The notes beneath the pieces are model-generated. The model was given only the letters and a program-made list of their open reading frames with translations, did not search any database and had not been told where the DNA came from. Made by a program: the position numbers and the translations under genes. Positions 27,517-55,989 of a DNA stretch of 64,000 nt are shown in pieces (the first letter of the stretch is position 1; each line of letters starts with the position of its first letter). This DNA comes from an uncultured virus (IMG/VR IMGVR_UViG_3300033121_002286) (lineage: Duplodnaviria; Heunggongvirae; Uroviricota; Caudoviricetes). Location of the stretch: IMG/VR virus record IMGVR_UViG_3300033121_002286. One strand, 5' to 3'.

Positions 27517-28521
27517 TCACTTAGGGAAATTAGACCACTTTAATTCATTGCTTTTCCACTTAAAATAATCATCAACAGCGTTTTTGCCAGAATTTATTAA
27601 AAAATCTATTTTTTCTTTTGACAATTTAAATTCGGTGGTACCAACATTTCCACTATCAATAAAAACAGTTCTATTCCAGTCATTATTATTTAAATGCTTT
27701 TTATTTACCATTTCCAATGTGAAATTAGCTAAAGTAACAATAAAATTTTTAAGACTTTTTGTTGAATGGGGGTCTACTTCCCAGGATGCAGACTCCTTTA
27801 AATAATTTTTTTCATCTTTTGAATCTACTCTAAAACCTAATGTTTCATAATTAAATGCGTAATCAGGATCATAATCTGAATATGCAAAAATAGCATTGTC
27901 TGGATTATATACATATTTTCTGTTGTCAAATAATTGTATTGGATAATTAGAAGTTAGTCCACCATCAACATAGTAATCATCATTTTCTTTTATACTTGTA
28001 AAAAATATTGGTATACTCATAGACATTCTTACTGCTTTATATATTGGAAGATCGGGATGATTTTCAAAAGATATTGCTTCTGCTTTTTGTTTTGTTACAT
28101 TGGTTGTTACCACATACAAGTCCTTGTATCCTGGTTCTTTTTTCTGAATTTTATTATTTAAATCCCTAAATGTAAAATTTCTATTTCCAGTCTTTTTCTC
28201 AATTAAGTCACCCAACCACTTTTCAAATGTATCACCCTTATTCCATCCATAATATTTTAAAAGTCTAATAATATCTCTAATAAATAAAAATGTATTGTCT
28301 TCAAATTTTTTAAAACTTGTTTCTGCAACAATATTTAAAATGTCATTTGAAGAATATCCAACCGCAATCAAACATGCTGTAATCGCTCCTGCAGAGGTTC
28401 CAGCAACACGAGTTAACCCTGAAATAATTCCAAGCTCATCAAGTTTTAAAAGAGAACCACCGTAAGCAATCCCCTTTACACCACCCCCTTCTAGAACTAA
28501 ATTTTTATAATTTAAATTCAT
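27517..28521 (-). CDS. patatin-like phospholipase
   Basis: EGGGVKG, GTSAG, DGG. Confidence 0.93.
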   Translation of the reverse strand: MNLNYKNLVLEGGGVKGIAYGGSLLKLDELGIISGLTRVAGTSAGAITACLIAVGYSSNDILNIVAETSFKKFEDNTFLFIRDIIRLLKYYGWNKGDTFEKWLGDLIEKKTGNRNFTFRDLNNKIQKKEPGYKDLYVVTTNVTKQKAEAISFENHPDLPIYKAVRMSMSIPIFFTSIKENDDYYVDGGLTSNYPIQLFDNRKYVYNPDNAIFAYSDYDPDYAFNYETLGFRVDSKDEKNYLKESASWEVDPHSTKSLKNFIVTLANFTLEMVNKKHLNNNDWNRTVFIDSGNVGTTEFKLSKEKIDFLINSGKNAVDDYFKWKSNELKWSNFPK

Positions 28522-29495: not shown

Positions 29496-30210
29496 CTAAT
29501 TTTTATTCTCATTTATTATTTTTTCTAATCTCTCTTGAAATTTACTTTTCTTGACCGGTTTATTTTCTGCATTTTCTTTTAGTTGGTGTTCAACAGTATC
29601 TTTTATTGCCTTTTTGACGAAGTTGTGAAGTGTTCCAGAAATTATAACACCCAACAATCCGGTTAAACCAATTTTTCCAGCAAAAGAAAAATCTCCCCAA
29701 ATCATGAGGAACAGGCTTGCTATCATACATAAGTCTCAGAATCAAATAAAATACAATAGCCTTTTTTTATAAAACCACAATCATCATCATCATTCTCATA
29801 ATCAAAAATATCACCAACTTTTACATATTTTTTTTCATATTTAAAGCCTTGTGTGATGTATTTGTTATTTAATAAGTATTATAAAATCGAAGTCTTACAA
29901 TATCTTTTGGTAAACTATCCAGATAAACATCAAAACCTTCTGACATTTCTCCACGATAAATATCATAGTGTTTACCTTTTTTTAATTTTATTGTTAATTT
30001 TTTTTCTGCCAGCTCTTGAATATAAGATTCGTCAACATTTTTATCGCCAACATTATCAAATAGGTCTTCTATATTTTTAAAATACTCCATTGTTTGCCTG
30101 GGTACATCTACTTGTTCATTGTGACACATTAACAGTATTTTAAGATGTTTTTTATAGTCTTTATCATTATCTGCAATATAAGCCTCTATTGTATTATCCT
30201 CTGTTCCCAT
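29496..30210 (-). other. small hypothetical CDSs (29496..29726 membrane, 29869..30210)
   Basis: Short co-oriented ORFs. Confidence 0.55.
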
Positions 30211-39156: not shown

Positions 39157-39182
39157 CTACTACGGAGGTTTTTATTTAATTG

Positions 39183-39265
39183 TAGCGGAAGGAGGACTCG
39201 AACCTCCGAGGCGTTATGCACTAGATTATGAGTCTAGACCGATGACCATCTTCGGACATTCCGCA
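39183..39265 (-). tRNA. tRNA-Met(CAT), 1:72 mismatch, enlarged variable region
   Basis: TGCGGAA/TTCCGCT-A; CTAGA-CTCATAA-TCTAG; GGAGG-TTCGAGT-CCTCC. Confidence 0.85.
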
Positions 39266-39310
39266 ATATAATTGTAAATATACATAAATAATTTTATAAT
39301 GCAATAGATA

Positions 39311-40153
39311 TTAATCATTATAAAAATTATTTTCTTCACGCTCTGCTTTTAAGACAGATTTATTTATGTTAGATCCAGAGGTCACATTGCTTTTAAGTAA
39401 ATTTTTAATTTTAGACAAAAAACTTTCAGCCCCCTTGTTTACAACAGGAAGTTCTTTTATTCTTTTCTCAGAAATTTTTCTAAAGGCTTTATCCAACCTT
39501 TCTCTTTGGTTCATAGTTAAGCTCATTTGAAATGCAAATTTAATGGTTTCTAATTTATAAATATTCAAATTTATTTGATTTTTATCAACGAGTCGTTGTT
39601 AATTGCTTTCCTAACATATCTCATCAGGGTAATGCATTTGATTGAAGCTGGAAACGTAGAAGTCCCAACGTCATCTCTGTCATTCATGTCAACAGGAAAC
39701 ATGTATTGATTACCCGATTCAGTAATAACCTGATAATACAACACACCGGCAATGGCATGTGATAAGTTGGCCATATTGTTGTTTCCAACAATATCTTTCA
39801 GATCGAATTTGTTTTCATTTTGTGTTTTAATTTGTGTCATCGTTTTTGTTTATTAAATTGTTTTTAAGAAATAAAATTACTTCATCAATCATATCAAGTT
39901 TGGTGATTTTTTGAGAATACATGTGGTATCTACCAGTAAAATCAAATACTGTATAAAACAATATAAATCCTCCAGATGGAGTTCTGTTATATTGAACCCA
40001 AATTGTATCTATCCAATCAAATTCAGTTCCAACTAATCTTTCTGGAATTATTGATTGAATATTCCAAACATTATTAAAGTGTTCTCTTTCTCTTTCAGAA
40101 TATTGTGCACTAGGAGAATAGATTGCGTATAGATTTTGACCTCTTGTTCTCAT
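39311..40153 (-). other. three small hypothetical CDSs (39311..39568, 39571..39840, 39827..~40153)
   Basis: Co-oriented ORFs downstream of the Lys tRNAs. Confidence 0.6.
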
Positions 40154-40167
40154 TTTTTTTATTTTTG

Positions 40168-40253
40168 TCCTCCCAGTGGGACTCGAACCCACGATGGACT
40201 TTTACATCACCTGCTTAAGAGGCAGATCCAATCGCCACTATGGAGATGGGAGG
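40168..40253 (-). tRNA. tRNA-Lys(CTT) with long variable arm
   Basis: CCTCCCA/TGGGAGG-A; CTGC-CTCTTAA-GCAG; GTGGG-TTCGAGT-CCCAC; 86 nt. Confidence 0.85.
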
Positions 40254-40259
40254 AAGTTG

Positions 40260-40347
40260 TGTACCTGGTGGGATTCGAACCCACGATGCAACTTACGTTG
40301 GACGGTTTAAAAGACCGATGTATTCGACCAGCTCTACGCACAGATAC
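40260..40347 (-). tRNA. tRNA-Lys(TTT) with long variable arm
   Basis: GTATCTG/CAGGTAC-A; CGGT-CTTTTAA-ACCG; variable hairpin CAAC-GTAA-GTTG; 88 nt. Confidence 0.85.
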
Positions 40348-40354
40348 ATTTTTG

Positions 40355-40438
40355 TACAGATGGTGGGACTCGAACCCACGATGGATTATTAATCTCCGGT
40401 TTAAAAGACCGTTCCAATCGCCACTATGGGACATCTGC
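40355..40438 (-). tRNA. tRNA-Lys(TTT) with long variable arm
   Basis: GCAGATG/CATCTGT-A; CGGT-CTTTTAA-ACCG; variable hairpin GATT-AAT-AATC; 84 nt. Confidence 0.85.
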
Positions 40439-40440
40439 AT

Positions 40441-40470
40441 AAAAAAAGCACATCTTTTTGTGATGTGCTT
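40441..40470 (-). terminator. attenuator terminator directly 5' of the tRNA-Lys cluster
   Basis: AAGCACATC-ACAAAAA-GATGTGCTT-TTTTT; 5' arm complementary to AGATGTGCTTT (40507..40517) in the leader. Confidence 0.85.
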
Positions 40471-40493
40471 CTTTCAGTTTAGACAATATCCTC

Positions 40494-40556
40494 TCAAGAG
40501 GATGCGAAAGCACATCTTCGATGTTTTTGTTTTTTATGTTTAAGAGTAATTGTCAT
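40494..40556 (-). CDS. Lys-rich leader peptide MTITLKHKKQKHRRCAFASS
   Basis: 20-aa ORF with four AAA codons among codons 6-11, ending 23 nt before the terminator. Confidence 0.8.
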   Translation of the reverse strand: MTITLKHKKQKHRRCAFASS

Positions 40557-40557
40557 T

Positions 40558-40803
40558 TTATTTTTTATAATTTAATTTTAAAAATTCTACTATTTCTTTA
40601 CTTGAAACTAAAGTTGCACCTTGGTTTATTGCATCTTTAAATTTACTTTCTTTAACATCATAATGAGGTTGGTTTTTTCCTCTTTTGTTTTGGAACCAGC
40701 ATTTTTTAATTCCAATCGTTTGTGCAAATATATGTAATTCTTCAATACTATCAGCAATCATGTGACTCCAGCCTTTTATTGGTGTATCAATATAAATTGC
40801 CAT
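40558..40803 (-). CDS. DUF4031-like protein
   Basis: IYID..WSHMIADSIEELH.FA..IG..WFQ..PHYDV. Confidence 0.8.
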   Translation of the reverse strand: MAIYIDTPIKGWSHMIADSIEELHIFAQTIGIKKCWFQNKRGKNQPHYDVKESKFKDAINQGATLVSSKEIVEFLKLNYKK

Positions 40804-40955
40804 ATGTTTAAATCCTCTTACCTTTCTTAATCAACATTCTGATATTTTTGATTTTGAAAATTTCCTGGTTCAAATATATTTTTATAGCCATTGTCACCGG
40901 ATACATTTTAAGTAACCACTTTATTGTATAATTTCCTCCATACCCACCTTTGTAT

Positions 40956-41988
40956 TTAAAAATCATTTTTATATTGCCTTTTTCTGTGTTCTTTCCAATT
41001 GTTATTTATTTGCATTCGGTTTCTGTTACATCCTCTTCCGGGAGAACAAATTCCACAACTGCTAAATTTTCTTGTATGACATTTGTTGTATACATATCGA
41101 TTGTTTGTAATCGACATTTCCTCATTAAAAGTCAATTGATTTATTTTTTCTTTTTCCATTTGAATAAAACATTAATTGTTTTATCCAAAATCTTTTTCCT
41201 TTTTCATTTTTAAATTATTTATATTTAGTTTTTCTGTTGTACTTCCAGGTTCTATACATTCTGTATTGCCAACTGGTTATTTCTTTTTTAAGTTTCTTTA
41301 AAGTTCTTTTTCCTCTGGATCTGTGGAAACAAATTCCTTCATCCCAATACGGTTCTACTTTTATTACTGTAATGTGATAAGCCCTTCCGTTTGTTTCGTT
41401 TTTTAGGCTTGATCTTTTTTTGTTTTTTTTGCTCATGGCATATAGGTTTTTAAACCTAATGCTCATCAAATTTCTTTTTCATTTTTATCTTTTTTACATT
41501 AATCGTAATATCCAATTATTTTTACATTTTTAGGATCACACAATATTTTTGGTGCCTTTCCATCTCCTGGCTTACTTAAATAGACTGGTATTTTTCCATT
41601 TATTAGATCGTCAGAGTTTTTTGTATATCCTAAACCATGTTTTGTTTCAACTAATTTTCCTTTCTTCTTTGCCATATTAAATAATATTATTTAATTGTTT
41701 TTGAATGTGTTGTTTTTCCAACAATTCAATATAACCCATGGGTGAAGTTCCAGGAGGAAGAAAACTAATATCTTTAAATCCATTCTCTTTTGTTATAATA
41801 GATTCTGACATGTTTACTCCTGCTGCATTTTTCTTTCCATAATCCCCAGTTTCTAATTTCTTAGTAGCCGGATTTACGTCTCCCCATTGTGTTCTATCCA
41901 GATTATCCGGATGATCTTCCATAACTTCAACATAGAAAGTTTTATTTAAAATTGTGGAGTGTATAGTTGTATATTTTACGTTGCTCAT
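40956..41988 (-). other. small, mostly basic hypothetical CDSs (40956..41159, 41215..~41438, 41677..41988)
   Basis: K/R-rich ORFs, two ending in WK..RK.(Q/K)YK. Confidence 0.6.
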
Positions 41989-42181
41989 TTTTTTAACTTA
42001 TTAATTTATTTATTTCATCTATTCCTTTAGACATAGATTCTGTTACTTGTTTAATTGCATCCAATATAGAAGGTGCATATATTTGATTTTTCCATTCTTC
42101 AAAATTCAAAAGAGATTCTGGATTTTGAATTTTATATTGTTTATATTGACTATCTAATGTCATATCTCAATTTGTTTTTTG

Positions 42182-42266
42182 AGGAGAGTACTGGAATTGA
42201 ACCAGTGCAGGTGTTACCCTGACCTCTGTTTAGCAAACAGGCACATTACCACTCTGTCAACTCTCC
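42182..42266 (-). tRNA. tRNA-Ser(GCT)
   Basis: GGAGAGT/ACTCTCC; CTGT-TTGCTAA-ACAG; long variable arm. Confidence 0.9.
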
Positions 42267-42283
42267 ATTTATTTATTGGAAAT

Positions 42284-42601
42284 TTAATTTTCATCCAAAA
42301 ATTTATTCCAACTTTTAATCAACCCTTCTATATTCTCCTTTCCAACCCCATTTGCAGAATGAACATTTACAATCATTCCTCTGAGATCAAATTGCTTTTC
42401 ATTAATTAACCACTTAACACAATCTATTCCATCTTTTCCTTCTCCGGCCCCAAGATCATGATCAAAGGAGCATTCTACTGGCACTCCGAAGTTTTCAATC
42501 GTTGAGATGAAATCTTCATAACTACGAACTACAACCCAAGGTCCGGGAGTTTTTGGATTTCTTTCGTCATCCAAATATAATTTATAGTTTTTAAATTTCA
42601 T
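42284..42601 (-). CDS. cyclic-phosphate-processing receiver-like domain protein
   Basis: LYLDDERNP, VVRSY, SFDHDLG, HSANGVG. Confidence 0.75.
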   Translation of the reverse strand: MKFKNYKLYLDDERNPKTPGPWVVVRSYEDFISTIENFGVPVECSFDHDLGAGEGKDGIDCVKWLINEKQFDLRGMIVNVHSANGVGKENIEGLIKSWNKFLDEN

Positions 42602-42619
42602 AGTTTAACAATTTATTAG

Positions 42620-42706
42620 AGGAAAGCGAAGGAACCGACCCCTTACCAGCTCATCACTGATACCATAGTTTTCAAGACTATTTGTACTCCATGTACGGCG
42701 CTTTCC
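42620..42706 (-). tRNA. tRNA-Ser(TGA), possible 8/4 acceptor/T-stem fold
   Basis: GGAAAGCG/CGCTTTCC 8 bp; ATAGT-CTTGAAA-ACTAT; T loop GTCGGTT. Confidence 0.8.
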
Positions 42707-42715
42707 CTGTTTTTG

Positions 42716-42789
42716 TGGACCCCCTGGGAATTGAACCCAAACCCGCAGTTTTTCAGACTGCTGTGCACACCAAATTACACCAAAGGTCC
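42716..42789 (-). tRNA. tRNA-Phe(GAA)
   Basis: GGACCTT/GGGGTCC-A; GCAGT-CTGAAAA-ACTGC. Confidence 0.9.
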
Positions 42790-43712: not shown

Positions 43713-45125
43713 CCACCTTCTTTGAAGGTGGTAATATCCTTATGGTTTTGCTTGGAATTAATAAAAAACAAATTAACCAAAAATATTTGTGGTTAAAATA
43801 ATTTTTTCATATATTTATACTTAGAAATTAAAAATGCTTAAAACTTATAAATATAGAATTTCGCCAACCCAAAAGCAAAAACTGCTCTTGGAAAAGCATT
43901 TTGGTGCTGTTCGGTTTGTTTATAATTTAGCACTGGAGACAAAAACAATAGCTTATTCTTCTATTAAATACAACATATCTAGATATGAACTTCAAGAACA
44001 ACTGCGTGATTTAAAAGAAGGATATGAATGGCTGAAAGAAATAAACAGTCAGTCTTTGCAATTCTCTTTACTTAACTTAGATGTAGCTTACACAAACTTT
44101 TTTAAAGGCAGGGCAAAGTTTCCAAATTTTAAAAACAAATATTCTTCTAAACATAGTTTTCATTGTCCACAAAATATTGCCATTGAAAATGGTTTGATAA
44201 CTTTACCGAAATTTAAAGAGGGAATAAAAATAAAATTGCATAGAAAATTTTTTGGAGAAATAAGAAATGCCACGGTAAGCAAAACCTCAACAAATAAATA
44301 TTTTGTATCCATTTTAGTGGATACAAAAGAGAGCACTCCAGATAAACTTTTAATCGAAAAGCAAACAGCAGTTGGAATAGATATGGGAGTTAAAATCTTT
44401 GCCACGTTGTCAAATGGAGAAGATATTCCCAATTCGACTTTTTTAAAATCTTCATTGCAAAGACTAAAAGTTTTGCAAAGGAGATTATCCAAAAAGAAAA
44501 AGGGAAGTGCAAACAGAAAAAAATCAACATTAAAATTAGCGAAGCAACATGAAAAAATAGCAAACCGAAGAAAAGATTTTCTTCACAAAACAACAAATGC
44601 GATAACCAAGCAATATAATACAGTTGTTATTGAAGACTTGAATATAAAAGGAATGAGTGCAAAGTGCAAATCTCAAAAAGATGAGAATGGAAAATACATT
44701 CACAACGGACAGTCAGCAAAGACAGGATTGAACAGATCTATTCTCGATGCTGGCTGGGGCATGTTTGCAGAATTTCTGAAATATAAATGCGAGTGGCGTG
44801 GAAAGAATTTTATCCAAATTGGAAGATTCGAACCTTCTAGTAAAATACACAATGGGTGTGGTTATTATAACCACTCTTTAACTTTACAAGAGAGAGAATG
44901 GATATGTCCAAAATGTGGTAAGTTGGTTGACAGGGAAAAAAACGCAGCATTAAACATATTAGATTTTGGATTAAATCCAAAGCAAAAACAAAAAGATTCA
45001 GGTGTGGAACGCACCGTTGAGCCTGTGGAGTTGCCGACAATGGTTAGGACTGTGAAGCAGGAAAAATTTATGGTTAAGTCTTGTACTTAATTATAATACT
45101 ACCTGCTTTGCAGGTGGTTGTTCAC
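43713..45125 (+). mobile_element. IS200/IS605-family (IS1341-like, TnpB-only) element
   Basis: Hairpins CCACCTTC-TTT-GAAGGTGG (43713..43731) and ACTACCTGC-TTT-GCAGGTGGT (45098..45118) then TGTTCAC; no tnpA; left boundary uncertain. Confidence 0.7.
43834..45090 (+). CDS. tnpB: RNA-guided endonuclease TnpB family protein
   Basis: YKYRISPT..FG.VRFVYN, VGIDMG, VVIEDL, SSK..CG..WICPKCG..DREKNAALNI. Confidence 0.93.
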   Translation: MLKTYKYRISPTQKQKLLLEKHFGAVRFVYNLALETKTIAYSSIKYNISRYELQEQLRDLKEGYEWLKEINSQSLQFSLLNLDVAYTNFFKGRAKFPNFKNKYSSKHSFHCPQNIAIENGLITLPKFKEGIKIKLHRKFFGEIRNATVSKTSTNKYFVSILVDTKESTPDKLLIEKQTAVGIDMGVKIFATLSNGEDIPNSTFLKSSLQRLKVLQRRLSKKKKGSANRKKSTLKLAKQHEKIANRRKDFLHKTTNAITKQYNTVVIEDLNIKGMSAKCKSQKDENGKYIHNGQSAKTGLNRSILDAGWGMFAEFLKYKCEWRGKNFIQIGRFEPSSKIHNGCGYYNHSLTLQEREWICPKCGKLVDREKNAALNILDFGLNPKQKQKDSGVERTVEPVELPTMVRTVKQEKFMVKSCT

Positions 45126-47669: not shown

Positions 47670-48660
47670 AACTAGGTTTTTCCTTTATGATAGAAGTTTT
47701 TATGTCTTCTAAGTTGGTCTTGGTAATGTCGTTAAAATAGTCTGAGACTACAACTATTTTTTGAGAGTCTCTGAGAGCATTATACCTTTTGGGCTTCTCT
47801 CTTTTATCCACAGATATTTCTACCTGTATCTCTCATCCTCAATGTTTCGAAATCAGCGAACTGACTTCCGGATATCAACCGTATCGTGTGCGATATTCGA
47901 CAAACTATTCCATCGTCAAGGCTTGCATAACCCTGGTGCGACAGCTTCATCTATCAAACTATCCATGCTTGGAGAGCGAAGATAGCACTCTGTTACATTA
48001 TCCACTCCGAAGAGTGGCAAGCGGTCAGAGCTTTAGAGGACTTTGTTCAACACACGTTACCAGACTTTCTCTTGTATAATGTATATGTTATAATAGAGAT
48101 TATACCTAAACCGAGCATTGGAAGACGAGCTGGTAAGTGAAGTTCCCTGGCTTTTGACCAGCGAATGCTTCTCGCCTTCCTGTGAGACTGCGAATCTCAC
48201 CACAACATAACGATCAACCACCTCAGTACTTTAATTGTTTTTTGCAACCAAAGCCAACTCATCGTTTAATTGTTTGCACAACCAACTGCATAAGCAGTGA
48301 ATGAGAAGTTCGACCTATATATTGTTGGCCAATGCATTTGTCATGTTGCACATAACTTACACATTATTTAAATACGATTTTTTGAACCGCATATAAACCA
48401 CACTCCATGTCTGAAGCATGAACGCCCTGACTTTCTCCTGTTGTCTGTTAAAACTCAACAACCGTCTCGGAACGATTGTCTGGTGTTTTTGAAACACACC
48501 AGGTACTAATCAGTGTTTGGGTGTTCTCCGCCATGCGGAGCGTATCTGCCTGCCCCTCTAAAACATGCTTTCACACATTAAGAGGTAAAGGTATATCAAC
48601 GACAGATACCTATAGTCCCATTGCTGGGGTTTACCTTAAGGGTGCCAAACCACCCTATAA
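47670..48660 (-). ncRNA. large (~1 kb) structured ncRNA, GOLLD-like candidate
   Basis: No credible ORF, raised GC, many hairpins (CCACTC-TTCG-GAGTGG, GTGAGATT-CGC-AGTCTCAC, CTGGTGT..ACACCAG); bounded by promoter, tRNA-like gene, boxA and terminator; family identity unverified. Confidence 0.7.
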
Positions 48661-48785: not shown

Positions 48786-49021
48786 ATTTTAAATTTTAGA
48801 CTTCACTACCTAAACTAACCTAACCTACAATAGTAGGTATTTTTCAAAAAATGTGTCAAATCATATTTTATTAATTTGACTCTGCAAATATACACACGAT
48901 TTTTCTTTTCGCAAGTGTTTTGCAAAATATTTTTCTTTTTTGTTTTCAACAAATAAATTGTTCATTGTTAATAATAGTTAAGTTGCTGAAAACCATTTTT
49001 TTATAAATTAAAAATTAAACT

Positions 49022-49297
49022 TTAAATTGCAGATTGTTGATTTTCAGCACTTTGATTTTCTATGTTGAATTCAAACTCCAAATTTTCTTTCATACAGTTG
49101 CACTTTATAAAACCAAAAAATTTGTTTTCAGATCTTTTACATTCAACAAATAAACCTTCTAAAGAAATATCAGAAGTCTTTAATATATAATCTGATAGTG
49201 CTTTCGATTCGTCTTCTGCAAGATCACCTGTGTGATTATAAAAATATTTTTTCAAAAGATTGGAAATGTATCTCTCAACAGATTTCAGATAAATCAT
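49022..49297 (-). CDS. hypothetical protein
   Basis: 91-aa ORF. Confidence 0.55.
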   Translation of the reverse strand: MIYLKSVERYISNLLKKYFYNHTGDLAEDESKALSDYILKTSDISLEGLFVECKRSENKFFGFIKCNCMKENLEFEFNIENQSAENQQSAI

Positions 49298-49388
49298 TTT
49301 TCTTTTCCTTAAAACTATTTTGTTGCGTTTATTTTCGTTTTTGGATCGGTATACGCAATTAGTTGCGTATATATTATGTTATAGGTAA

Positions 49389-49562
49389 TTAAAAAATTGA
49401 TTTCAACCGTTTCCACCACGATTTCCATCTGAACCTAACTATTGTATCACATATCATACATTTATCCATTGTATAATGCTCCGTATTTGTGTAAACGATA
49501 TTACGGAAATCGTTGCAGTCGTGCTTAGGAAAAGTTACTGCGTTGTCTTGTTCTTTATTCAT
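49389..49562 (-). CDS. cassette 1 small protein (57 aa; HDC and CxxC motifs)
   Basis: MNKEQDNAVTFPKHDCNDFRN..KCMICDTIVRFRWKSWWKRLKSIF fills the cassette. Confidence 0.65.
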   Translation of the reverse strand: MNKEQDNAVTFPKHDCNDFRNIVYTNTEHYTMDKCMICDTIVRFRWKSWWKRLKSIF

Positions 49563-49579
49563 AATCAATTTTTCAACAT

Positions 49580-49680
49580 ACCTATAACAAAGTGTATAAG
49601 TAATGTGGCTAATTAAATTTATCTGTAAGTCGAAAGTATGTGCAAAGCCACACTACTCATACACTCGACCGTTATATGCA
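49580..49680. repeat. attC-like site 1
   Basis: CCTATAAC-AA-AGTGTAT.AGTA.TGTGGCT..AGCCACA.TACT.ATACACT-CGACC-GTTATAT. Confidence 0.8.
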
Positions 49681-49751
49681 ATGCTACGTTATCACTTCGT
49701 ATTAAGTTTTGTGGTTAAATCTTTTTGTTTTATTTTTTTCCACCCACACAA

Positions 49752-50411
49752 TTATAAATCAATAAGTTTTACTTGACCATATTTATCTTGCATTAAATTA
49801 TCACCATGAAAATCTACATAATTAAAACCAAATGCTTGTTTGTATTCTTGAAATGCTGATTGTATATCATTAATAAAAGTTTCATAATCACTATAATTTT
49901 CATAAAACCATTTTAATTTATCAACATATTGTTTTTCTGAAATACTATCAATATCAGTCTCTTCCATCAATTCTTCTACCTTTAAATAAAGGTCATCACG
50001 TAAATTATCTTCTAACCAAACATCTAAACCATCTTCATCATTAGTGTAGAATAAATAATCAATGCAATCTATGATGTTTTTTTCTTCTTGTGAAATTGGT
50101 AATAAAACTTCCATAACAACACAATATTTACCATTGATTTTCCTAACATCATAGACTGTCGGTAAATAATCATAGTATTCATCTATAAGTGCTGAATAAT
50201 CACCAACCATTTCAGTTCGTATATTTAATGCAAAATTACCTTTGTTTGTGATTATTTTATATGTTTTACTATAATCACCACTACCCAAGTCAGTAATATT
50301 ATTCACTACAATATTATTTTCTTTAAAGTATTGTAGATATTCTTCATCGTGATTTAATTGTTCATTCAAATATTCACGTATAGTAGTTGCTATAAATTTT
50401 CTTAATTCCAT
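49752..50411 (-). CDS. cassette 2: protein-kinase-like (APH/PKL fold) protein with LRKFIATTIREYLNE leader
   Basis: LGSGDYSKTY, VVMEVL, DFHGDNLM, VKLID. Confidence 0.75.
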   Translation of the reverse strand: MELRKFIATTIREYLNEQLNHDEEYLQYFKENNIVVNNITDLGSGDYSKTYKIITNKGNFALNIRTEMVGDYSALIDEYYDYLPTVYDVRKINGKYCVVMEVLLPISQEEKNIIDCIDYLFYTNDEDGLDVWLEDNLRDDLYLKVEELMEETDIDSISEKQYVDKLKWFYENYSDYETFINDIQSAFQEYKQAFGFNYVDFHGDNLMQDKYGQVKLIDL

Positions 50412-50526
50412 ATTCTTAAATAGTTTTATTCTATATATAAATATTCAAATTTTAATTTTCATCCCACAAAAAATAAAACAAAAATATTTCATGCTTCGTA
50501 TCAAAGTTTCTACTATAAATCCGCAC

Positions 50527-50626
50527 TGCATATAACAAGGTGTATAAAACATAACCCATTATAATTCAGTGGTTAATATCAAAGTTCATGGTTGGGTTAC
50601 GTTTCATACACCCAACCGTTATGCTC
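50527..50626. repeat. attC-like site 2
   Basis: CATATAAC-AA-GGTGTAT.AAAC.TAACCCA..TGGGTTA.GTTT.ATACACC-CAACC-GTTATGC. Confidence 0.8.
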
Positions 50627-50693
50627 CATGCCTTAGTTTAGTGTTTCAATTTGAGTTTCATGATGAAAAACAAAAAAAATTTTTCCAACGCAC

Positions 50694-51179
50694 TTATTGA
50701 ATTATTTGGATATTATCTTTATCGAAAACACCAATTGATTCAACATCTCTTTCTAATTCTTCAGCAATTAATATTGAATCAAACCCATTTGAAATAGCAC
50801 AATAATAAGCATCATCACAAGTCCAATAAGGTAGTTCTTTATAAAATTGTTCATCCAATATTTCATCAATTTCTTCATTAGTTTTACCATCATTTTTCAA
50901 ATAATCTATAAATAATTCAAAATGATTTTTATTTGAAGTATCGAAAGTGTTGTGAATATTTAATTTTACCTTATAAATATATTTACCATAAGTTTTAGCA
51001 TAGTCCAAATTTTTAGTAAAAAACCAGACAGGTAAATCAATTTCCATATATGTTTTATTATATACTAAATCAAACATATCAAATTTATTATTTGAACCGT
51101 GATACCAAATATCGTTGGAATAATTCTCATTCAAATATTCTCTAATAGTGGTTGCTATAAACTTTCTCAAATCTTTCAT
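50694..51179 (-). CDS. cassette 3: ADP-ribosyltransferase-like protein with LRKFIATTIREYLNE leader
   Basis: WYHGS..F..F, WFFT..YA..YG, GFDSI, E.IGVF. Confidence 0.65.
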   Translation of the reverse strand: MKDLRKFIATTIREYLNENYSNDIWYHGSNNKFDMFDLVYNKTYMEIDLPVWFFTKNLDYAKTYGKYIYKVKLNIHNTFDTSNKNHFELFIDYLKNDGKTNEEIDEILDEQFYKELPYWTCDDAYYCAISNGFDSILIAEELERDVESIGVFDKDNIQIIQ

Positions 51180-51286
51180 TTTTTCTTTTATATATAAATA
51201 TTCAATTTTAAAATATCCACCCTAAAATTCTTTTTATTTTTCTTTCGTGTTTCAAATTAAGTTTAGTGGTTAATAAGTCGGCACAA

Positions 51287-51418
51287 GAGCATAACAAGGT
51301 GTATATGTAATGTGAGTTTCAGTTGTATATTGAACATTTGTTCTTCTAATTAAGTTTATCTGTAATTGAAAGTTCAGTTATTCTAATCTCACACTACATA
51401 TACACCCAACCGTTAGGC
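51287..51418. repeat. attC-like site 3
   Basis: GCATAAC-AA-GGTGTATATGTA.TGTGAG..CTCACA.TACATATACACC-CAACC-GTTAGGC. Confidence 0.8.
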
Positions 51419-51552
51419 ACAATGCAAGTGCGTAACCCGAAGGAAATCTTCTTTGTCTATTGAAATAAACTTATCTGTTATTCCTTTCACAAATTCTTGA
51501 TATTCTTTTTCGTATTTCATTTTTTTATTCGTATAAAATTTTTAAAACTAAA

Positions 51553-51606
51553 ACATAACAGCAAATAAAACACTTTAAAACGATGTTTTATTTGCAACCG
51601 TTATAT
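51553..51606. repeat. attC-like site 4 (short)
   Basis: ACATAAC-A-GCAAATAAAACA..TGTTTTATTTGC-AACC-GTTATAT. Confidence 0.75.
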
Positions 51607-51610
51607 GGTA

Positions 51611-51817
51611 TTAAGAAGACCCGTAGTGAAAACTTGACCAACAATCATATTCCGAGTTCCATCTAAAACCAAGTTCACATAATTTATCCTTATCTTCTTT
51701 CGACACTTCCTCTTCTGTAATTCCAACCACCATAAGTATATCGTGTTCACAATTCGTTGGGTAAGTTTCGTTTTTGTACTTTAAGAAAATTTGTAATGCT
51801 TCAATTAACTTTTCCAT
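51611..51817 (-). CDS. cassette 5 hypothetical phage protein
   Basis: MEKLIEALQIFLKY..PTNCEHD..LGF..SFHYGS. Confidence 0.7.
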   Translation of the reverse strand: MEKLIEALQIFLKYKNETYPTNCEHDILMVVGITEEEVSKEDKDKLCELGFRWNSEYDCWSSFHYGSS

Positions 51818-51856
51818 TTTGCTTTGAAATTTAACTGCACACAACAAGTGTGGTGA

Positions 51857-52961: not shown

Positions 52962-52988
52962 AAACGGTTAAAAGTTATAAAAGTTACA
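52962..52988 (-). promoter_or_regulatory. ECF-sigma-type promoter TGTAAC-N16-CGTTT
   Basis: Exact motif 8 nt upstream of the kptA start. Confidence 0.7.
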
Positions 52989-55900
52989 AACTTTTCTTTT
53001 TGCTTAAAACAATTTGCAACAAATCATCAAAAACACTATGTTTAACAGAGTTCTCTCTGTGTTCACCATCTAAAATTTGCATTGTTATTTTTTCTTTTTT
53101 ATTAAGCAACTCTTCGATATATTCATCTATTGTGTCTTGAACAACAAGCCTTATAATTTGTACATTATCCGATTCTTGTCCTGCCCGATGACAACGATCC
53201 TCAGCCTGAATTCGATCTGATGGTGTCCATGGCTGATCAATAAAAAGGACAGTACTGGCTGATGTCAAAGTAAGACCAACACCTGCAGCACCAATAGTTC
53301 CTGAAAACACCTTTTTCTTTTCATCTTCCATGAATTTTTCTCTTGCTTCTTCCTTTTCCTCAGCCGATTTTTTCCCGGTATACCAAACAGCATTGTCTTT
53401 AAACTCCTCATATATCATTCGTGTTGTTTCAACATATTGAGAAAAAACAACAACCTTTTCATCTCCATCAATTATGTTTCTTATAAATTCAAATGATCTT
53501 TGGGCACAAATTTTAGAAGTAAACATTTTTAATTTCTGAATTTTTGCCAAACCAACCATCCTATCATCATCTTCAGAGGTATCTTCAACAACTCCTTTTT
53601 CTAATTTTTTATATTCCCTTAATTCTTCTGGGGTTAAATAAATTGGAATTATTGTATATGTTTTTGCTGGTAAATATTCTAAAACTCCAGGATCTTTTTT
53701 TCTTCTTCTTAAATATAAATAAGATAATTTTTGAAACAACTCTGCTTCATTCGTAGAATCATCATAATTCCAATGTCCCCACTCATCTTCTTTACCGCCA
53801 CAATATTTTACTCCAAAACTGTGTGAGTTAACCCATTCAAAGGGATCAAGAAAGTTTAATACAGGAAAAAACTCATAAGGCTTGTTTTTAATGGCAGTTC
53901 CAGACATTAAAATTTTTCTTGGTGTCTTTTTAAATCCAGCATTAACAAGCTTGTATCTGCTCGATTTTACATTTTTGATATAATGACAATTAGATACCAG
54001 TATATTATTTGCATAATAATTATGATTGTCTGAAATTTCTAAATTAAAAACTTCTTTATTTCCAACACAACCGCTTCTATTGAATTGTCTATTTCCTGAT
54101 TCCAGAATCTCAATACTTTCCACCCTAGAAAATTCAATATTTCCGTTTTCCTCTTGTCCAAAAATTTCCATTTTTTCATTAGATGCGTTTTTCCATCTAC
54201 CTCTATTGATAATTTCAATTCTGGAAATGCCAAATCCACTTTGTAATGATTTGGCAAACTTTTGAAAAATCCCCTCGCTGGCCTTGTTTTTATTGGATAT
54301 TCCATTACCCATCCTTCTCCCAAAGAATCGTATAACCTTTGTTGCTGTTTTGTTATTTGTCCATTGCCACCTCTTGATAAAAATGTTTTTCCAACTGAAC
54401 TCTTTTTCATTTTTTCTATGTTTTTTTGATCCGCCATAGGGTTGTTCAATTTCATTCGAATTGAAGATTTTTGGGCTCTTGCAGGGTTGTTCTGATAATT
54501 TTTTAAATTTGACTCTTTTACTTTTCGCTTGGTTTCTTCCGTATATATCTTTGCCCTTATTTCCGGTTGGGACATTCTCCATTTTGCAGAACAATTCGTT
54601 GAACAAAATCTTCTTTTTTGAGATTGTTTTCCGTTTGATTTTATTTTGAATGTTTTTCCACACCATTGACATGATTTTACTATCAAAGGCTTTGAATTTC
54701 GTTTCTTTACTGCCAATTTTGATTTCTGGGTGTTCATAATTGTTTTTGAGGCGCAACTCACACTGCAATATTTTCCCTTTTTCCATATTTGCTTTTTGCT
54801 CAGCGGTTTTTGACAACACCCACACAGTATCTCCAGTTTTAATTTCTTCTGCTCTGACATATTTGTTTCCGTTTATATAGATTTTGTGATTTGGAGTGCA
54901 AACGATATCTTGTCCATTGTTTGTTCTTATTTTTAACAAACAAGATGATGTTTGCTTCTTTATATATCTGTTTATTTTTTTATATTCATTTTTTTTTGTA
55001 ATATGATTATAACTTAGTACTTTAAAATCTAAATTAAATTCAACCAAATCTCCTATTGGAACATTACCAAATTCGGTCATAATATTTGTTTCATAAACAA
55101 AGCATTCATCAATTACGACCAAATCATAAATTGATGTTTTTAAATCCACACCACCCTTGTCAACAAAACTACACAATTCTGTATTCCTAGATTTAACAGA
55201 ATTTTCTTTAAAACACTTGGGACACATTTTGTGTTTTTTCACCTGGCTCACTTCATCAAAATCACAATAAGGATTTTGACATTTATGATGAACGTCAAAC
55301 TTCAAATAAGTCTCTAAAGCATTATAACTTACAATGTGAATTTTACTTGTTTCTGGACTGCCCAATTGTAGTCCTTCTTTTTTCTTTATCTTATATTTAA
55401 AGACATATGGTACCTCATGTGTAAATTTCAAAATTTCCTTTGCCCAAATAAGCGCAAGAGAGGCAGGACATATAATTAAAGTTTGGAAGTGGTGTTTGGC
55501 TGAATATGAAATTGCTGTAAGGGTCTTGCCCACACCTGGCTCATCCCCCAACAAAGCTACACCATCAGAACATTCAAAAAATTTAACAGCTTTCTTCTGA
55601 TATAAATAAGGCTCGATCTTCATAAAAGAATAATCCTCATTTTTTATTTCCTCATCAAAATCTCCATTCTTAAATTTTTCTACCTGGATTAATCTTTCTT
55701 TTCTTTTTTTAACATACTCTTCAACTTTCCAAATTTCTTTTTCTGATAAATTTTCGTATTGATATAAAATGTGATTATCTTGACAATACCACATTATTTT
55801 CATTAATCCGTGAATGTTGCAAATATGAAACCAATCTTTTTTAGACTGTCCACTATCCGTAATTACAGTGTCAAAAGCGGTCTTAATCTGTTCTTTGGAT

Positions 55901-55989
55901 ATGGTTTTAAGGTGTTTTATGAGTTCTTCGTCATACCCAAACCTGACCTGAAAATTGGTCCTTATACGTTTAATCTTGACTACTGGCAT
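52984..55989 (-). CDS. SNF2-family (SMARCAL1/HARP-like) helicase with intein
   Basis: DEPGVGKT, IICPASL, VIDE|CH, MSGTA, KVVVFS, AAGVGLTLT, QAEDRCHRAGQ. Confidence 0.92.
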   Translation of the reverse strand: MPVVKIKRIRTNFQVRFGYDEELIKHLKTISKEQIKTAFDTVITDSGQSKKDWFHICNIHGLMKIMWYCQDNHILYQYENLSEKEIWKVEEYVKKRKERLIQVEKFKNGDFDEEIKNEDYSFMKIEPYLYQKKAVKFFECSDGVALLGDEPGVGKTLTAISYSAKHHFQTLIICPASLALIWAKEILKFTHEVPYVFKYKIKKKEGLQLGSPETSKIHIVSYNALETYLKFDVHHKCQNPYCDFDEVSQVKKHKMCPKCFKENSVKSRNTELCSFVDKGGVDLKTSIYDLVVIDECFVYETNIMTEFGNVPIGDLVEFNLDFKVLSYNHITKKNEYKKINRYIKKQTSSCLLKIRTNNGQDIVCTPNHKIYINGNKYVRAEEIKTGDTVWVLSKTAEQKANMEKGKILQCELRLKNNYEHPEIKIGSKETKFKAFDSKIMSMVWKNIQNKIKRKTISKKKILFNELFCKMENVPTGNKGKDIYGRNQAKSKRVKFKKLSEQPCKSPKIFNSNEIEQPYGGSKKHRKNEKEFSWKNIFIKRWQWTNNKTATKVIRFFGRRMGNGISNKNKASEGIFQKFAKSLQSGFGISRIEIINRGRWKNASNEKMEIFGQEENGNIEFSRVESIEILESGNRQFNRSGCVGNKEVFNLEISDNHNYYANNILVSNCHYIKNVKSSRYKLVNAGFKKTPRKILMSGTAIKNKPYEFFPVLNFLDPFEWVNSHSFGVKYCGGKEDEWGHWNYDDSTNEAELFQKLSYLYLRRRKKDPGVLEYLPAKTYTIIPIYLTPEELREYKKLEKGVVEDTSEDDDRMVGLAKIQKLKMFTSKICAQRSFEFIRNIIDGDEKVVVFSQYVETTRMIYEEFKDNAVWYTGKKSAEEKEEAREKFMEDEKKKVFSGTIGAAGVGLTLTSASTVLFIDQPWTPSDRIQAEDRCHRAGQESDNVQIIRLVVQDTIDEYIEELLNKKEKITMQILDGEHRENSVKHSVFDDLLQIVLSKKKSL
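53989..55104 (-). mobile_element. intein (372 aa) inserted in the DE|CH box
   Basis: Starts CFVYET, block B CTPNH, ends VFNLEISDNHNYYANNILVSN followed by Cys. Confidence 0.92.
54039..54860 (-). CDS. DUF559/Vsr-like endonuclease encoded out of frame inside the intein
   Basis: CGCC..YCSVSC, CQWC..FCSTNC, RMKLNNPM, YKVDLA..IEVDGKTH..DKRK..GWKVLRFWN. Confidence 0.85.
   Translation of the reverse strand: MSEQKKLKLEILCGCCQKPLSKKQIWKKGKYCSVSCASKTIMNTQKSKLAVKKRNSKPLIVKSCQWCGKTFKIKSNGKQSQKRRFCSTNCSAKWRMSQPEIRAKIYTEETKRKVKESNLKNYQNNPARAQKSSIRMKLNNPMADQKNIEKMKKSSVGKTFLSRGGNGQITKQQQRLYDSLGEGWVMEYPIKTRPARGFFKSLPNHYKVDLAFPELKLSIEVDGKTHLMKKWKFLDKRKTEILNFLGWKVLRFWNQEIDNSIEAVVLEIKKFLI

What the first reader, a model, noticed from the sequence alone, without database searches (positions are those of the whole stretch)
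49350..51855. Integron-like cassette array in a phage, stocked with phage-type effector genes
Seen: four attC-like palindromes (TAAC..stem..CC-GTTA, one ending GTTAGGC) separate single-gene units. Each of units 1-3 has self-complementary ends that differ between units (GTTATAGGT/ACCTATAAC; GTTATATGCA/TGCATATAAC; GTTATGCTC/GAGCATAAC), as expected if each was once a circle recombined at the GTT. Units 4-5 have mismatched ends and both outer sites are truncated. Cargo includes kinase-like and ART-like proteins with their own TATTTAT promoter and the LRKFIATTIREYLNE tag. No integrase is in the window. Inference: a cassette-shuffling system diversifying injected effectors, using a distant phage or host tyrosine recombinase.
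Basis: partly seen in the sequence, partly recalled or inferred. Interest (0 to 1): 0.85.

Follow-up and report, generated by a model that had tools for sequence, protein, structure and literature searches.

The report
Phage integron-like gene cassette array
This stretch of a large phage genome is a real integron-like array of small swappable gene cassettes separated by folded recombination sites, and it belongs to a widespread family in Flavobacteria and their phages that uses a recombinase different from the classical integron integrase.

Summary
Window 49350-51610 has an integrase-proximal (attI-like) junction, four attC-like hairpin sites (TAAC..stem..GTTA) and four cassettes, with all genes on the minus strand. 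The 6 nt after GTTA at one end of a cassette are the reverse complement of the 6 nt before TAAC at its other end (6, 6, 5 and 0 of 6 in the window).

In IMG/VR relatives this holds for 64 of 161 adjacent site pairs, against 3 of 242 same-site pairs and 2% of random pairs. At least 20 related viral contigs carry a 266-286 aa tyrosine recombinase at one fixed end of such arrays, next to a conserved AT-rich ..TA|GTTA junction. It is Xer/IntI-like but lacks the IntI-specific insert.

The window has that junction but no recombinase in 64 kb. Metagenome contigs of the same phage show cassette 1 plus its site deleted exactly between two GTTATA cores (two studies). Another carries a different first cassette after the same core.

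Flavobacteriaceae chromosomes carry the same platform. Published tools and papers that I could search have not recognised it. The claim of "injected effectors" rests only on an N-terminal tag found in a minority of cassettes. Verdict: a real, active or recently active, non-IntI integron-like system, and a new variant of a known kind.

The parts
49350..49381 (+). attI-like junction: 9-bp hairpin (49350-58 pairs with 49363-71), AT-rich TATATATTAT, then the GTTA core at 49378-81
   Evidence: Fold. Alignment with 15 integrase-proximal junctions and 9 chromosomal ones. Joint and loose end at this core in other samples.
49022..49297 (-). 91-aa ORF of no known family, in the place where relatives carry the recombinase gene
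   Evidence: no family. (position of the recombinase in relatives).
49378..49588 (-). Cassette 1 (211 nt, small ORF 49389-49568), ends GTTATAGGTA / TACCTATAAC
   Evidence: Absent, together with site 1, in contigs of runs X2 and X6.
49580..49680 (-). attC-like site 1 (R'' box, 20-bp stem with 2 wobble positions, R' box)
   Evidence: (I14). DNA fold of the minus strand is -15.7 against -10.8 kcal/mol for the plus strand.
49671..50536 (-). Cassette 2: 219-aa tagged protein (ORF 49752-50411), weakly kinase-like
50527..50626 (-). attC-like site 2
   Evidence: (I17). Fold -17.8 (minus) against -11.6 (plus); z -4.26.
50618..51295 (-). Cassette 3: 161-aa tagged ART-like protein (ORF 50694-51179)
   Evidence: (ART-PolyVal E 1.2e-6, below cut-off).
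51287..51419 (-). attC-like site 3 (long type, ends GTTAGGC)
   Evidence: (I7).
51412..51559 (-). Cassette 4: 148-nt remnant with a 35-aa ORF (51413-51520) and mismatched ends
   Evidence: A promoter-like repeat lies at 51515-51553 (D1).
51550..51611 (-). attC-like site 4 (short type, 12-bp stem, loop CTTTAAAACGA)
   Evidence: Same type as short sites in IMG/VR arrays and as P12002L_attC1.
51600..51855 (-). Unit after the last site (ORF 51611-51847); probably backbone, since no distal site was found
   Evidence: Contigs of 4 runs run through 51850 unchanged (table 8).
50433..50450 (-). Conserved upstream motif of cassette 2 (gene strand reads ..AATATTTATATAT); second copy at 51190-51207 before cassette 3
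   Evidence: D4, D11, D19. The motif is found in 22 of 173 cassettes and 12 of 13 tagged ones.
50362..50408 (-). Coding sequence of the shared N-terminal tag (LRKFIATTIREYLNE); second copy at 51127-51173
   Evidence: (D3, 85% identical).

Best explanation
The region is the cassette array of an integron-like platform that lacks its own recombinase gene. Each cassette is a small gene plus one folded attC-like site. The site consists of an R box made of TAAC/GTTA plus 6-8 cassette-specific bases, a 3-nt bulge, and a 12-21 bp stem. Cassettes are inserted and excised by site-specific recombination within the GTTA core. The events occur at an attI-like junction (..TATATATTAT|GTTA, 49368-49381) and between sites. 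The enzyme is a Xer/IntI-like tyrosine recombinase of 266-286 aa that lacks the IntI-specific insert. Relatives encode it directly beside the junction. In this phage it must come from elsewhere in the genome, from a co-infecting relative or from the Flavobacteria-type host, or else it was lost recently.

Shown: the site architecture; the end-complementarity rule; the linkage of recombinase, junction and array in relatives; natural variants of this very array that differ by whole cassettes at the cores.

Inferred: that the gene (minus) strand folds as single-stranded DNA and is the strand exchanged; the exact cleavage position; resolution by replication; the source of the enzyme.

The cargo is a stock of small accessory genes. 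Where identifiable, these are DNA methyltransferases, RNA-repair enzymes, acetyltransferases and ART-like enzymes, which suggests host takeover and counter-defence.
For: (1) Sites. Four sites lie in the window and nowhere else in 64 kb. The stems differ in sequence but keep pairing.

(2) End rule. The window gives 6, 6, 5 and 0 of 6, against 2, 1, 0 and 1 for same-site controls. In the family, 64 of 161 adjacent pairs match at all 6 positions, with 19 more at 5 and 13 at 4. Same-site pairs give 3 of 242 and random pairs 406 of 20000.

(3) Recombinase. PF00589 is found in 5 of 5 viral records searched, next to the arrays. tblastn finds homologues in 31 loci rows, which are at least 20 differently named contigs. 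The gene is always at the same end, transcribed away from the array, with array genes pointing toward it. The catalytic motifs align to XerA.

(4) Junction. 13 of 15 integrase-proximal junctions share an AT-rich ..TA|GTTA core. 11 of 15 have the exact complement of GTTA+6 at the first site. The window fits both.

(5) Strand asymmetry. Stem mismatches are A.C 605 against G.T 82 on one strand, so they are wobbles on the gene strand. Minus-strand DNA folds are better at sites 1-3.

(6) Mobility in this array. A joint 49377>49671 removes cassette 1 plus site 1, 293 nt between two GTTATA cores. It appears in a 611-nt contig with 0 mismatches (run X2) and in run X6, from two studies. A 5589-nt contig of X3 is identical over 48900-49383 and then continues with a different cassette beginning GTTATAAACAAT.

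(7) Mobility in relatives. L004 and L018 are 99.86% identical over 7284 bp and unrelated beyond a site core. All 4 of 4 homologous cassette pairs sit in different contexts, with breaks at the cores.

(8) Cassette orientation. 173 of 189 unique cassettes have their longest ORF on the same relative strand.
Against: No recombinase is in the 64 kb window, and the rest of the genome is not held.

No circles were seen. The run evidence comes from assembled contigs, which cannot show rare forms, and a 6-bp repeat could also mediate a slippage deletion.

65 of 161 adjacent pairs match at fewer than 4 positions, and cassette 4 of the window does not match.

Which hairpin travels with a cassette is not consistent in the few homologous pairs. 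In one pair the proximal hairpin is shared, in another the distal one.

A member of the short site type (P12002L_attC1) did not recombine with IntI1 in the published assay. That fits a different enzyme but is no positive evidence.

My site finder is home-made, gap-free and tuned on these sites, so it can miss or invent sites. Folding as ssDNA cannot be told apart from folding in the mRNA, because the better-folding strand is the gene strand.
Confidence: 0.8

Rival explanations
1. Regulatory repeats shuffled by homologous recombination, like the promoter-stem-loop (PeSL) cassettes of T4-type phages. The hairpins would be terminators or RNA elements, the conserved upstream motifs would be promoters, and exchange would happen by ordinary recombination between near-identical repeats.
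For: Hairpins of one type are highly similar across contigs. Tagged cassettes share conserved 5' and 3' untranslated parts and an upstream motif. Contigs replace an ORF precisely between conserved flanks, for example 50694>51180. The wobble pairs lie on the transcribed strand. PeSL exchange and mini-circles are documented in T4-type phages (abstract of PMC2839356).
Against: Homologous exchange inside 50-130 nt repeats would not leave the 6-nt flank of one site complementary to the flank of the next. It would not put breaks at the 4-bp core. A conserved tyrosine recombinase and junction at a fixed end of the arrays would be unexplained. Hairpins of quite different sequence obey the same rule.
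Confidence: 0.08
2. An inert relic. The array was built by the integron-like mechanism, but in this phage it is dead: the recombinase is lost and one cassette is truncated. The population variants would then be old alleles spread by general recombination among related phages.
For: No recombinase in 64 kb. Cassette 4 is a 148-nt remnant with mismatched ends. An unrelated 91-aa ORF sits where the recombinase gene lies in relatives.
Against: Three alleles at the same attI-like core occur on otherwise identical backbone with 0 mismatches, which points to recent events. Homologous recombinases are frequent in the likely host family, 123 of 201 genomes, and could act in trans.
Confidence: 0.1
3. A fragment of a bacterial integron picked up passively by the phage (a CALIN in the sense of the published phage survey), with no role for the phage.
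For: The same platform exists in Flavobacteriaceae chromosomes. Phage CALINs have been read this way (PMC9892861, section 3.4).
Against: Arrays of 10-16 sites with their own recombinase occur in many large viral contigs. The phage version has its own fixed gene orientation. The cargo is phage-like: orphan methyltransferases, RNA repair, and tagged enzymes with a phage-type upstream motif.
Confidence: 0.02

Closest known systems
Integrons (IntI, attI, attC cassettes; sedentary chromosomal integrons with uniform attC sites)
   Same: A recombinase gene sits at one end and is transcribed away from the array. A junction site lies next to it. Single-gene cassettes are each bounded by an imperfect palindrome with AAC...GTT cores. 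The cassette start is complementary to the inverse core of the cassette's own site. Site lengths of 38-170 nt (median 89) are similar to the published range, which I recall as roughly 57-141. One strand folds better. Sites within an array are similar to each other. Most cargo has no known family.
   Different: The recombinase lacks the IntI-specific insert, with about 48 residues fewer than VchIntIA in that region, and scores below the integron-integrase cut-offs. The R box is longer, 10-12 bp. There is a 3-nt bulge instead of recognisable extrahelical bases. In phages the cassette genes point toward the recombinase, so a promoter at the junction cannot drive them. Cassettes are very small, median 377 nt. 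IntegronFinder surveys report almost no integrons in Bacteroidetes (passage of PMC9024848).
Clusters of attC sites lacking an integrase (CALIN) reported in phages, e.g. Polaribacter phage P12002L (Qi et al. 2023, PMC9892861)
   Same: P12002L carries two or three cassettes of this very family. P12002L_attC1 has the same geometry and loop as window site 4. Methyltransferase genes lie on the opposite strand. The flank GTTAGGCAC is matched by GTGCCTAAC. Like the window, it has no recombinase.
   Different: The paper treats these as bacterial-type attC sites tested with IntI1. attC1 was the one site of six that gave no recombinants. It does not describe a dedicated recombinase, large arrays, or the chromosomal counterpart.
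PeSL regulatory cassettes of T4-type phages (Arbiol et al. 2010, PMC2839356; Comeau et al. 2014, PMC4122927)
   Same: Small accessory genes in a variable region of a large phage, flanked by repeated promoter and stem-loop modules. Circles and modular shuffling are reported (abstract read; second paper seen in listing only).
   Different: PeSL exchange is homologous recombination between repeats, with no dedicated recombinase, no 4-bp core and no end-complementarity rule.
T4 internal proteins with a capsid targeting sequence
   Same: Diverse defence-countering proteins share only a short N-terminal targeting sequence (passage of PMC3012670). Here ART-like, acetyltransferase and kinase-like bodies share the N-terminal tag LRKFI.TTIREYLNE.
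   Different: No capsid protease, scaffold or virion data are available here. My memory that the T4 prohead protease cuts after L/I-x-E, which the tag contains twice, is recalled and not checked. The analogy is only a lead.
Xer-dependent modules (pdif modules of Acinetobacter plasmids; recalled, not looked up)
   Same: Small gene modules are bounded by sites for a Xer-type tyrosine recombinase.
   Different: Those sites are short 28-bp double-stranded dif-like sites in alternating orientation, served by the host XerC/XerD. Here the sites are 40-170-nt hairpins in one orientation, with a dedicated recombinase and junction.

Membership tests
Integron (strict sense) | Integrase of the IntI type, with the IntI-specific additional domain in the catalytic fold | tested here: not met
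   The family recombinase scores 151 bits on TIGR02249 (cut-off 265) and 100.8 on NF011946 (cut-off 435); its best hit is XerA-like, at 176 bits (cut-off 220). Aligned to VchIntIA (2a3v) in two pieces, query 174>209 corresponds to chain 177>260, so about 48 residues are missing. The window itself has no recombinase.
Integron (strict sense) | attI site adjacent to the integrase gene, where cassettes enter | tested here: met
   A conserved AT-rich ..TA|GTTA junction lies 35-60 nt from the start codon in 13 of 15 phage loci. Its flank is matched by the first site in 11 of 15. It is also present in 9 of 9 chromosomal loci inspected. The window keeps the junction, and it is polymorphic exactly there. 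Function as an entry site is inferred.
Integron (strict sense) | Common promoter (Pc) at the platform driving promoterless cassettes outward | tested here: not met
   In the phage version, cassette genes point toward the recombinase (173 of 189). 22 of 173 have their own upstream motif. The rest have leaders with a median of 50 nt and no identified promoter.
attC recombination site | Imperfect palindrome with an inverse core ending AAC and a core starting GTT, with the variable central part paired | tested here: met
attC recombination site | Cassette signature: bases after G|TT at the cassette start are complementary to the inverse core of the cassette's own site | tested here: met
   Window: 6, 6, 5 and 0 of 6. 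Family: 64 of 161, against 3 of 242 and 2% in controls.
attC recombination site | Extrahelical bases and an unpaired central spacer that mark the recombined (bottom) strand | tested here: inconclusive
   Folds show a 3-nt bulge between the R helix and the stem on the better-folding strand. A 2-nt against 5-nt spacer asymmetry occurs in 254 of 371 sites, but no single bulged bases are seen. The published features are recalled, not re-read.
attC recombination site | Recognised by the attC covariance model / recombined by IntI1 | not testable with these tools
   No attC model is held here. Rfam has no match. In print, P12002L_attC1, a member of the short type, was predicted by HattCI only and gave no IntI1 recombinants.
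PeSL cassettes of T4-type phages | Strong early promoter plus terminator stem-loop as the repeated unit; exchange by homology | tested here: not met
   The repeat unit here is a hairpin with a 4-bp core, and breaks fall at the core. The upstream motif occurs in only 22 of 173 cassettes.

The most novel reading that the evidence does not exclude
A second lineage of integron-like gene-capture platforms exists in Flavobacteriaceae chromosomes and, in an inverted and much expanded form, in their large phages. It is run by a Xer-like recombinase without the IntI insert and is invisible to current integron finders. The phages use it to stock and exchange small counter-defence and host-takeover genes between phages, and possibly with hosts. 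A subset of cassettes carries a shared N-terminal tag that may target the enzyme into the capsid for injection.
Probability: 0.55. Interest if true: 0.9.

Novelty: new variant of a known kind. Interest (0 to 1): 0.85.

Why it matters
Integrons are held to be a bacterial device defined by IntI. Phage cases in print are a handful of small, bacterial-looking fragments. Here the same logic (junction, folded sites, circular-cassette signature) appears with a different recombinase. It forms arrays of ten or more cassettes in many large uncultured phages, and it is present in the chromosomes of more than half of the sampled Flavobacteriaceae as judged by the recombinase. That would give phages a dedicated gene-capture system for accessory genes. 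It would open a direct route for cassette traffic between host and phage, and it would explain part of the 'hyperplastic' small-ORF regions of big phages. The sites and enzyme would also offer a new structure-specific recombination tool. Everything needed for a bench test (enzyme, junction, sites) is defined by sequence.

Tried and rejected
Own genome: not held.

Source contig: a 41-mer of site 2 is not in IMG/VR. A 28-mer of the junction is not in the JGI metagenome contigs. There is no near match of window 40000-64000 in GenBank phages.

Close relatives of the flanking Tpt1 gene and of the ART-like cassette protein were not found in IMG/VR: 25 and 32 pattern hits respectively, none confirmed. 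Synteny with close relatives therefore could not be compared that way.

A type-A site has no blastn match in GenBank phages.

Rfam: no family at the sites. The only hits were two chance matches below their gathering scores.

IS200/IS605 idea: a TnpB gene lies 4.3 kb away. However, no TnpA is present, the sites show no target duplication, and relatives link the arrays to a tyrosine recombinase. Rejected.

MITE with target-site duplication: flanks of one site are neither direct repeats nor complementary (same-site control). Rejected.

Giant-virus-style hairpin terminators: considered because of AAAATTGA-like motifs and hairpins between genes. Rejected because the proteins and relatives are phage-like and the hairpins form a conserved family with cores.

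Prohead protease in the window, to support capsid targeting: none found.

Circular junctions: the only 'go-back' joint (51184>50432, run X5) is explained by another tagged cassette sharing the conserved flanks. Contigs cannot show circles.

Literature searches found no description of this recombinase-plus-array system. The library lacks most subscription journals.
Full report
**What is in the window.** The window is a large, AT-rich phage-like contig. It encodes SSB, a Lon-type protease, DHFR, dUTPase, an endolysin, a phage IF3, six tRNAs and a GOLLD RNA. No whole genome is held for it.

Between 49350 and 51610 all genes lie on the minus strand and are separated by four structured sites.
- Sites 1-3 share the ends ATAACAARGTGTATA and ATACACNNRMCCGTTA. 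Each end occurs three times in 64 kb at 0 mismatches, only here. About 0.7-0.9 matches are expected even with two mismatches allowed.
- Site 4 has the same plan with an unrelated 12-bp stem.
- A gap-free hairpin finder that I wrote looks for TAAC, a short spacer, a stem, a longer spacer and GTTA. At score 10 or more it finds these four sites and nothing else in the window.

**The cassette signature.** The 6 bases after GTTA at the low-coordinate end of a unit are the reverse complement of the 6 bases before TAAC at its high-coordinate end.
- Unit 1: 6 of 6.
- Unit 2: 6 of 6.
- Unit 3: 5 of 6.
- Unit 4: 0 of 6.
- The two flanks of one and the same site match at only 2, 1, 0 and 1 positions.

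This is what is expected if each unit was once a circle carrying one complete site and was opened within GTTA.

**The family.** 77 of 111 distinct hits have the matching 5' half upstream, so the rest are probably chance.

The sites fall into several conserved types of about 48, 88 and 125 nt (range 38-170, median 89). Of the 128 loci, 46 hold 3 or more sites, 27 hold 5 or more and 11 hold 10 or more. 376 of 395 sites follow the majority orientation of their locus.

Among 161 adjacent site pairs:
- the flank rule holds at all 6 positions in 64, at 5 in 19 and at 4 in 13;
- same-site pairs give 3 of 242;
- random pairs give 406 of 20000;
- 65 pairs match at fewer than 4 positions.

Many matches continue after one A/G difference, which is a wobble on the gene strand. 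The R box is therefore 10-12 bp.

**Which strand folds.** The spacers are asymmetric, 2 nt on one side and 5 nt on the other in 254 of 371 sites. Stem mismatches are A.C 605 times and G.T 82 times on the strand that reads outward from the junction. On the complementary (gene) strand they are therefore mostly G.T wobbles.

Folded as DNA, the minus strand gives -15.7, -17.8 and -19.2 kcal/mol for sites 1-3, against -10.8, -11.6 and -17.2 for the plus strand. Site 4 is equal on both strands. The minus-strand fold is a 6-7 bp R helix, a 3-nt bulge and an uninterrupted stem.

Relative to the junction, this is the strand that integron workers call the bottom strand. That definition is recalled, not checked. 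Because it is also the mRNA strand, a role of the hairpins in RNA cannot be separated from a role as folded DNA.

**The recombinase.**
- PF00589 was found in 5 of 5 viral records searched, each time beside the array.
- tblastn with four of these proteins finds homologues in 31 loci rows, which correspond to at least 20 differently named contigs. Three of those are partial copies.
- The same search finds nothing in the window (best E 0.28).
- The arrangement is constant. The gene lies at one end and is transcribed away from the array, and the array genes point toward it.

The proteins are 266-286 aa.
- Their best NCBIfam hit is XerA-like, at 176 bits (cut-off 220).
- The integron-integrase model gives 151 bits (cut-off 265).
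- Against solved structures the order is XerA, VchIntIA, XerA, XerD.
- The alignment to VchIntIA breaks where IntI has its extra domain, so about 48 residues are missing there. The catalytic motifs align.
- A published classification notes that this insertion is essential for integron function and is not fully conserved in its 'integron-like' subgroup (passage of PMC8138268).

**The junction.** Between the recombinase start codon and the first cassette, 13 of 15 phage loci share an AT-rich core ending ..TA|GTTA, followed by a cassette-specific flank. In 11 of 15 the exact complement of GTTA+6 stands at the first site. Two loci with more distant recombinases have a different junction..CTAACCCC.C|GTTA.

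The window has ..GCGTATATATTAT|GTTATAGGTA at 49365-49387, preceded by a 9-bp hairpin, and its complement stands at site 1. The recombinase gene that should follow is replaced by a 91-aa ORF of no known family, followed by the GOLLD RNA.

On this reading the array has four cassettes, each with its site on the side away from the junction. The unit after site 4 is backbone. I found no site at the right outer end.

**Evidence that cassettes move.**

First, in this very array. Twenty public runs from 13 studies hold part of the stretch; where a source is recorded it is wastewater, sludge (activated-sludge or digester) or river metagenomes. I laid the contigs of four runs.
- A 611-nt contig of run X2 matches 49011-49377 and 49671-49914 with 0 mismatches. 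It skips 293 nt, which is exactly cassette 1 plus site 1, between two GTTATA cores.
- Run X6, from another study, has the same joint.
- A 5589-nt contig of X3 is identical over 48900-49383 and then continues with other sequence, giving a first cassette that starts GTTATAAACAAT.
- Further loose ends start or stop at the cores of sites 1, 2, 3 and 4.

The backbone therefore carries at least three alleles at the junction core. These are contigs, so rare forms and circles cannot be seen.

Second, in relatives.
- L004 and L018 are 99.86% identical over 7284 bp and unrelated beyond a site core, on the recombinase side.
- Among 189 unique cassettes only 4 homologous pairs exist. All 4 sit in different contexts, with the break at a core.
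- In those pairs the shared hairpin is sometimes the proximal and sometimes the distal one, which the simple model does not explain.

**Cargo.** Cassettes are small: median 377 nt, with a median longest ORF of 87 aa. 173 of 189 have that ORF on the same relative strand.

Of 139 ORFs of 60 aa or more, about 17 have a Pfam hit at E 0.001 or better. These include six DNA methyltransferases, two GNAT acetyltransferases, an RNA ligase, a HAD domain of RNA-repair proteins, YopX, DUF3850 and DUF6527.

In the window:
- the 161-aa protein is ART-like, just below the cut-off;
- the 219-aa protein is only weakly kinase-like;
- a Tpt1 RNA 2'-phosphotransferase lies just outside the array.

The N-terminal tag occurs in 13 of 173 cassette ORFs, on unrelated bodies. 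The upstream TATTTATATA motif occurs in 22 of 173, including 12 of the 13 tagged ones. Typical leaders are too short (median 50 nt) to hold a promoter.

The parallel with T4 internal proteins is a lead only. In T4, diverse anti-restriction proteins share just a capsid targeting sequence (passage of PMC3012670). No virion or protease evidence is in the window.

**Hosts and chromosomal counterparts.** The nearest recombinases in cultured phages are those of Cellulophaga and Polaribacter phages, at 35-41% identity.

True sites occur in 24 of 120 loci from the bacterial and archaeal genome collection, mostly on small contigs binned into MAGs. One isolate, Flavobacterium cheonanense JCM 17069, shows the layout clearly.
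- A 344-aa recombinase is 46% identical to the phage one and has no insert.
- It is followed by ..ATATATACTA|GTTAGCAACT and then a 311-aa ORF.
- A site follows whose flank CAGTTGCTAAC matches.
- The whole lies next to ordinary chromosomal genes.
- Here the recombinase points into the array.

In a sample of 201 genomes of that family, 123 have a homologue at E 1e-60 or better. 7 of the 20 best loci show a site downstream within the short flank held. All 9 loci that I read have a ..A|GTT junction about 100 nt after the stop codon, often behind an inverted or direct repeat.

IntegronFinder 2.0 reports only one complete integron in Bacteroidetes proper (passage of PMC9024848).

**What is in print.** A survey of 10,705 phage genomes found 3 integrons, one In0 and 17 CALINs, and read them as bacterial integron parts (PMC9892861; abstract, section 3.4, passages and one supplementary file read).

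Its Polaribacter phage P12002L carries cassettes of this family. P12002L_attC1 (30001-30057 of the record) has the geometry and loop of window site 4. Its flanks obey the rule, and the methyltransferase genes lie on the opposite strand. That site was the one of six that gave no IntI1 recombinants.

Five full-text searches found no description of the recombinase-plus-array system. Subscription journals are largely absent from the library, so this does not prove novelty.

**Verdict.** The integron-like reading is supported by four independent lines: the end rule, the linked recombinase and junction in relatives, strand-asymmetric structure, and cassette-level variants at the cores in this very array.

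It works like an integron, but it fails the membership test for the integrase and for the common promoter. It is therefore a new variant, not a member.

Three questions remain open: where this phage gets its enzyme, whether the sites act as folded single strands, and whether the tagged enzymes are packaged.

Noticed in passing
window 47739-48180 (-), with ORF-poor sequence on to about 48800: GOLLD RNA match at 151 bits against a gathering score of 150. It lies directly beside the array, in the place where relatives have the recombinase and its neighbours.
   Followed up: no
window 43834-45090 (+): TnpB / OrfB_IS605 gene (Pfam E 2.8e-31; phrog_506 E 4.8e-117) with no TnpA nearby.
   Followed up: partly
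window 52984-55989 (-): SNF2-type helicase split by an intein: Intein_splicing E 8e-13 at residues 309-667, with the SNF2 domain in two stretches.
   Followed up: partly
window 3323-3877 (+); 39182-42789 (-): Phage-encoded translation initiation factor IF3, with both domains, and six tRNA genes: Met, three Lys, Ser, Phe.
   Followed up: no
window 49717-49738 and 50468-50489: A 22-nt inverted repeat, 95% complementary, lies between the 3' and 5' untranslated parts of cassette 2 (I4). In the circular form it would extend the site by an outer stem. The same untranslated parts recur around different genes in L032 and L059 and in run contigs that replace only the ORF (joints 49738>50358 and 50694>51180).
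   Followed up: partly
L006 about 4014-4260: Next to the junction there is a near-empty unit, GTTATGGCA..TGCCATAAC only 11 nt apart. It is followed by a site whose loop holds an insertion of about 190 nt.
   Followed up: no
L031, L032 (IMG/VR): Recombinases only 43-47% identical to the main phage group have a different junction..TCTAACCCC(A/C)C|GTTA. This suggests that enzyme and junction co-vary.
   Followed up: no
L256-L275 (Flavobacteriaceae genomes): Many chromosomal homologues of the recombinase lie within a few hundred bases of a contig end on the side where the array should start. This would be expected if repeated sites break assemblies.
   Followed up: no
window 27517-28521 (-), 1333-2790 (+): A patatin-like phospholipase and a glutamate-synthase-domain protein are encoded by the phage.
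   Followed up: no
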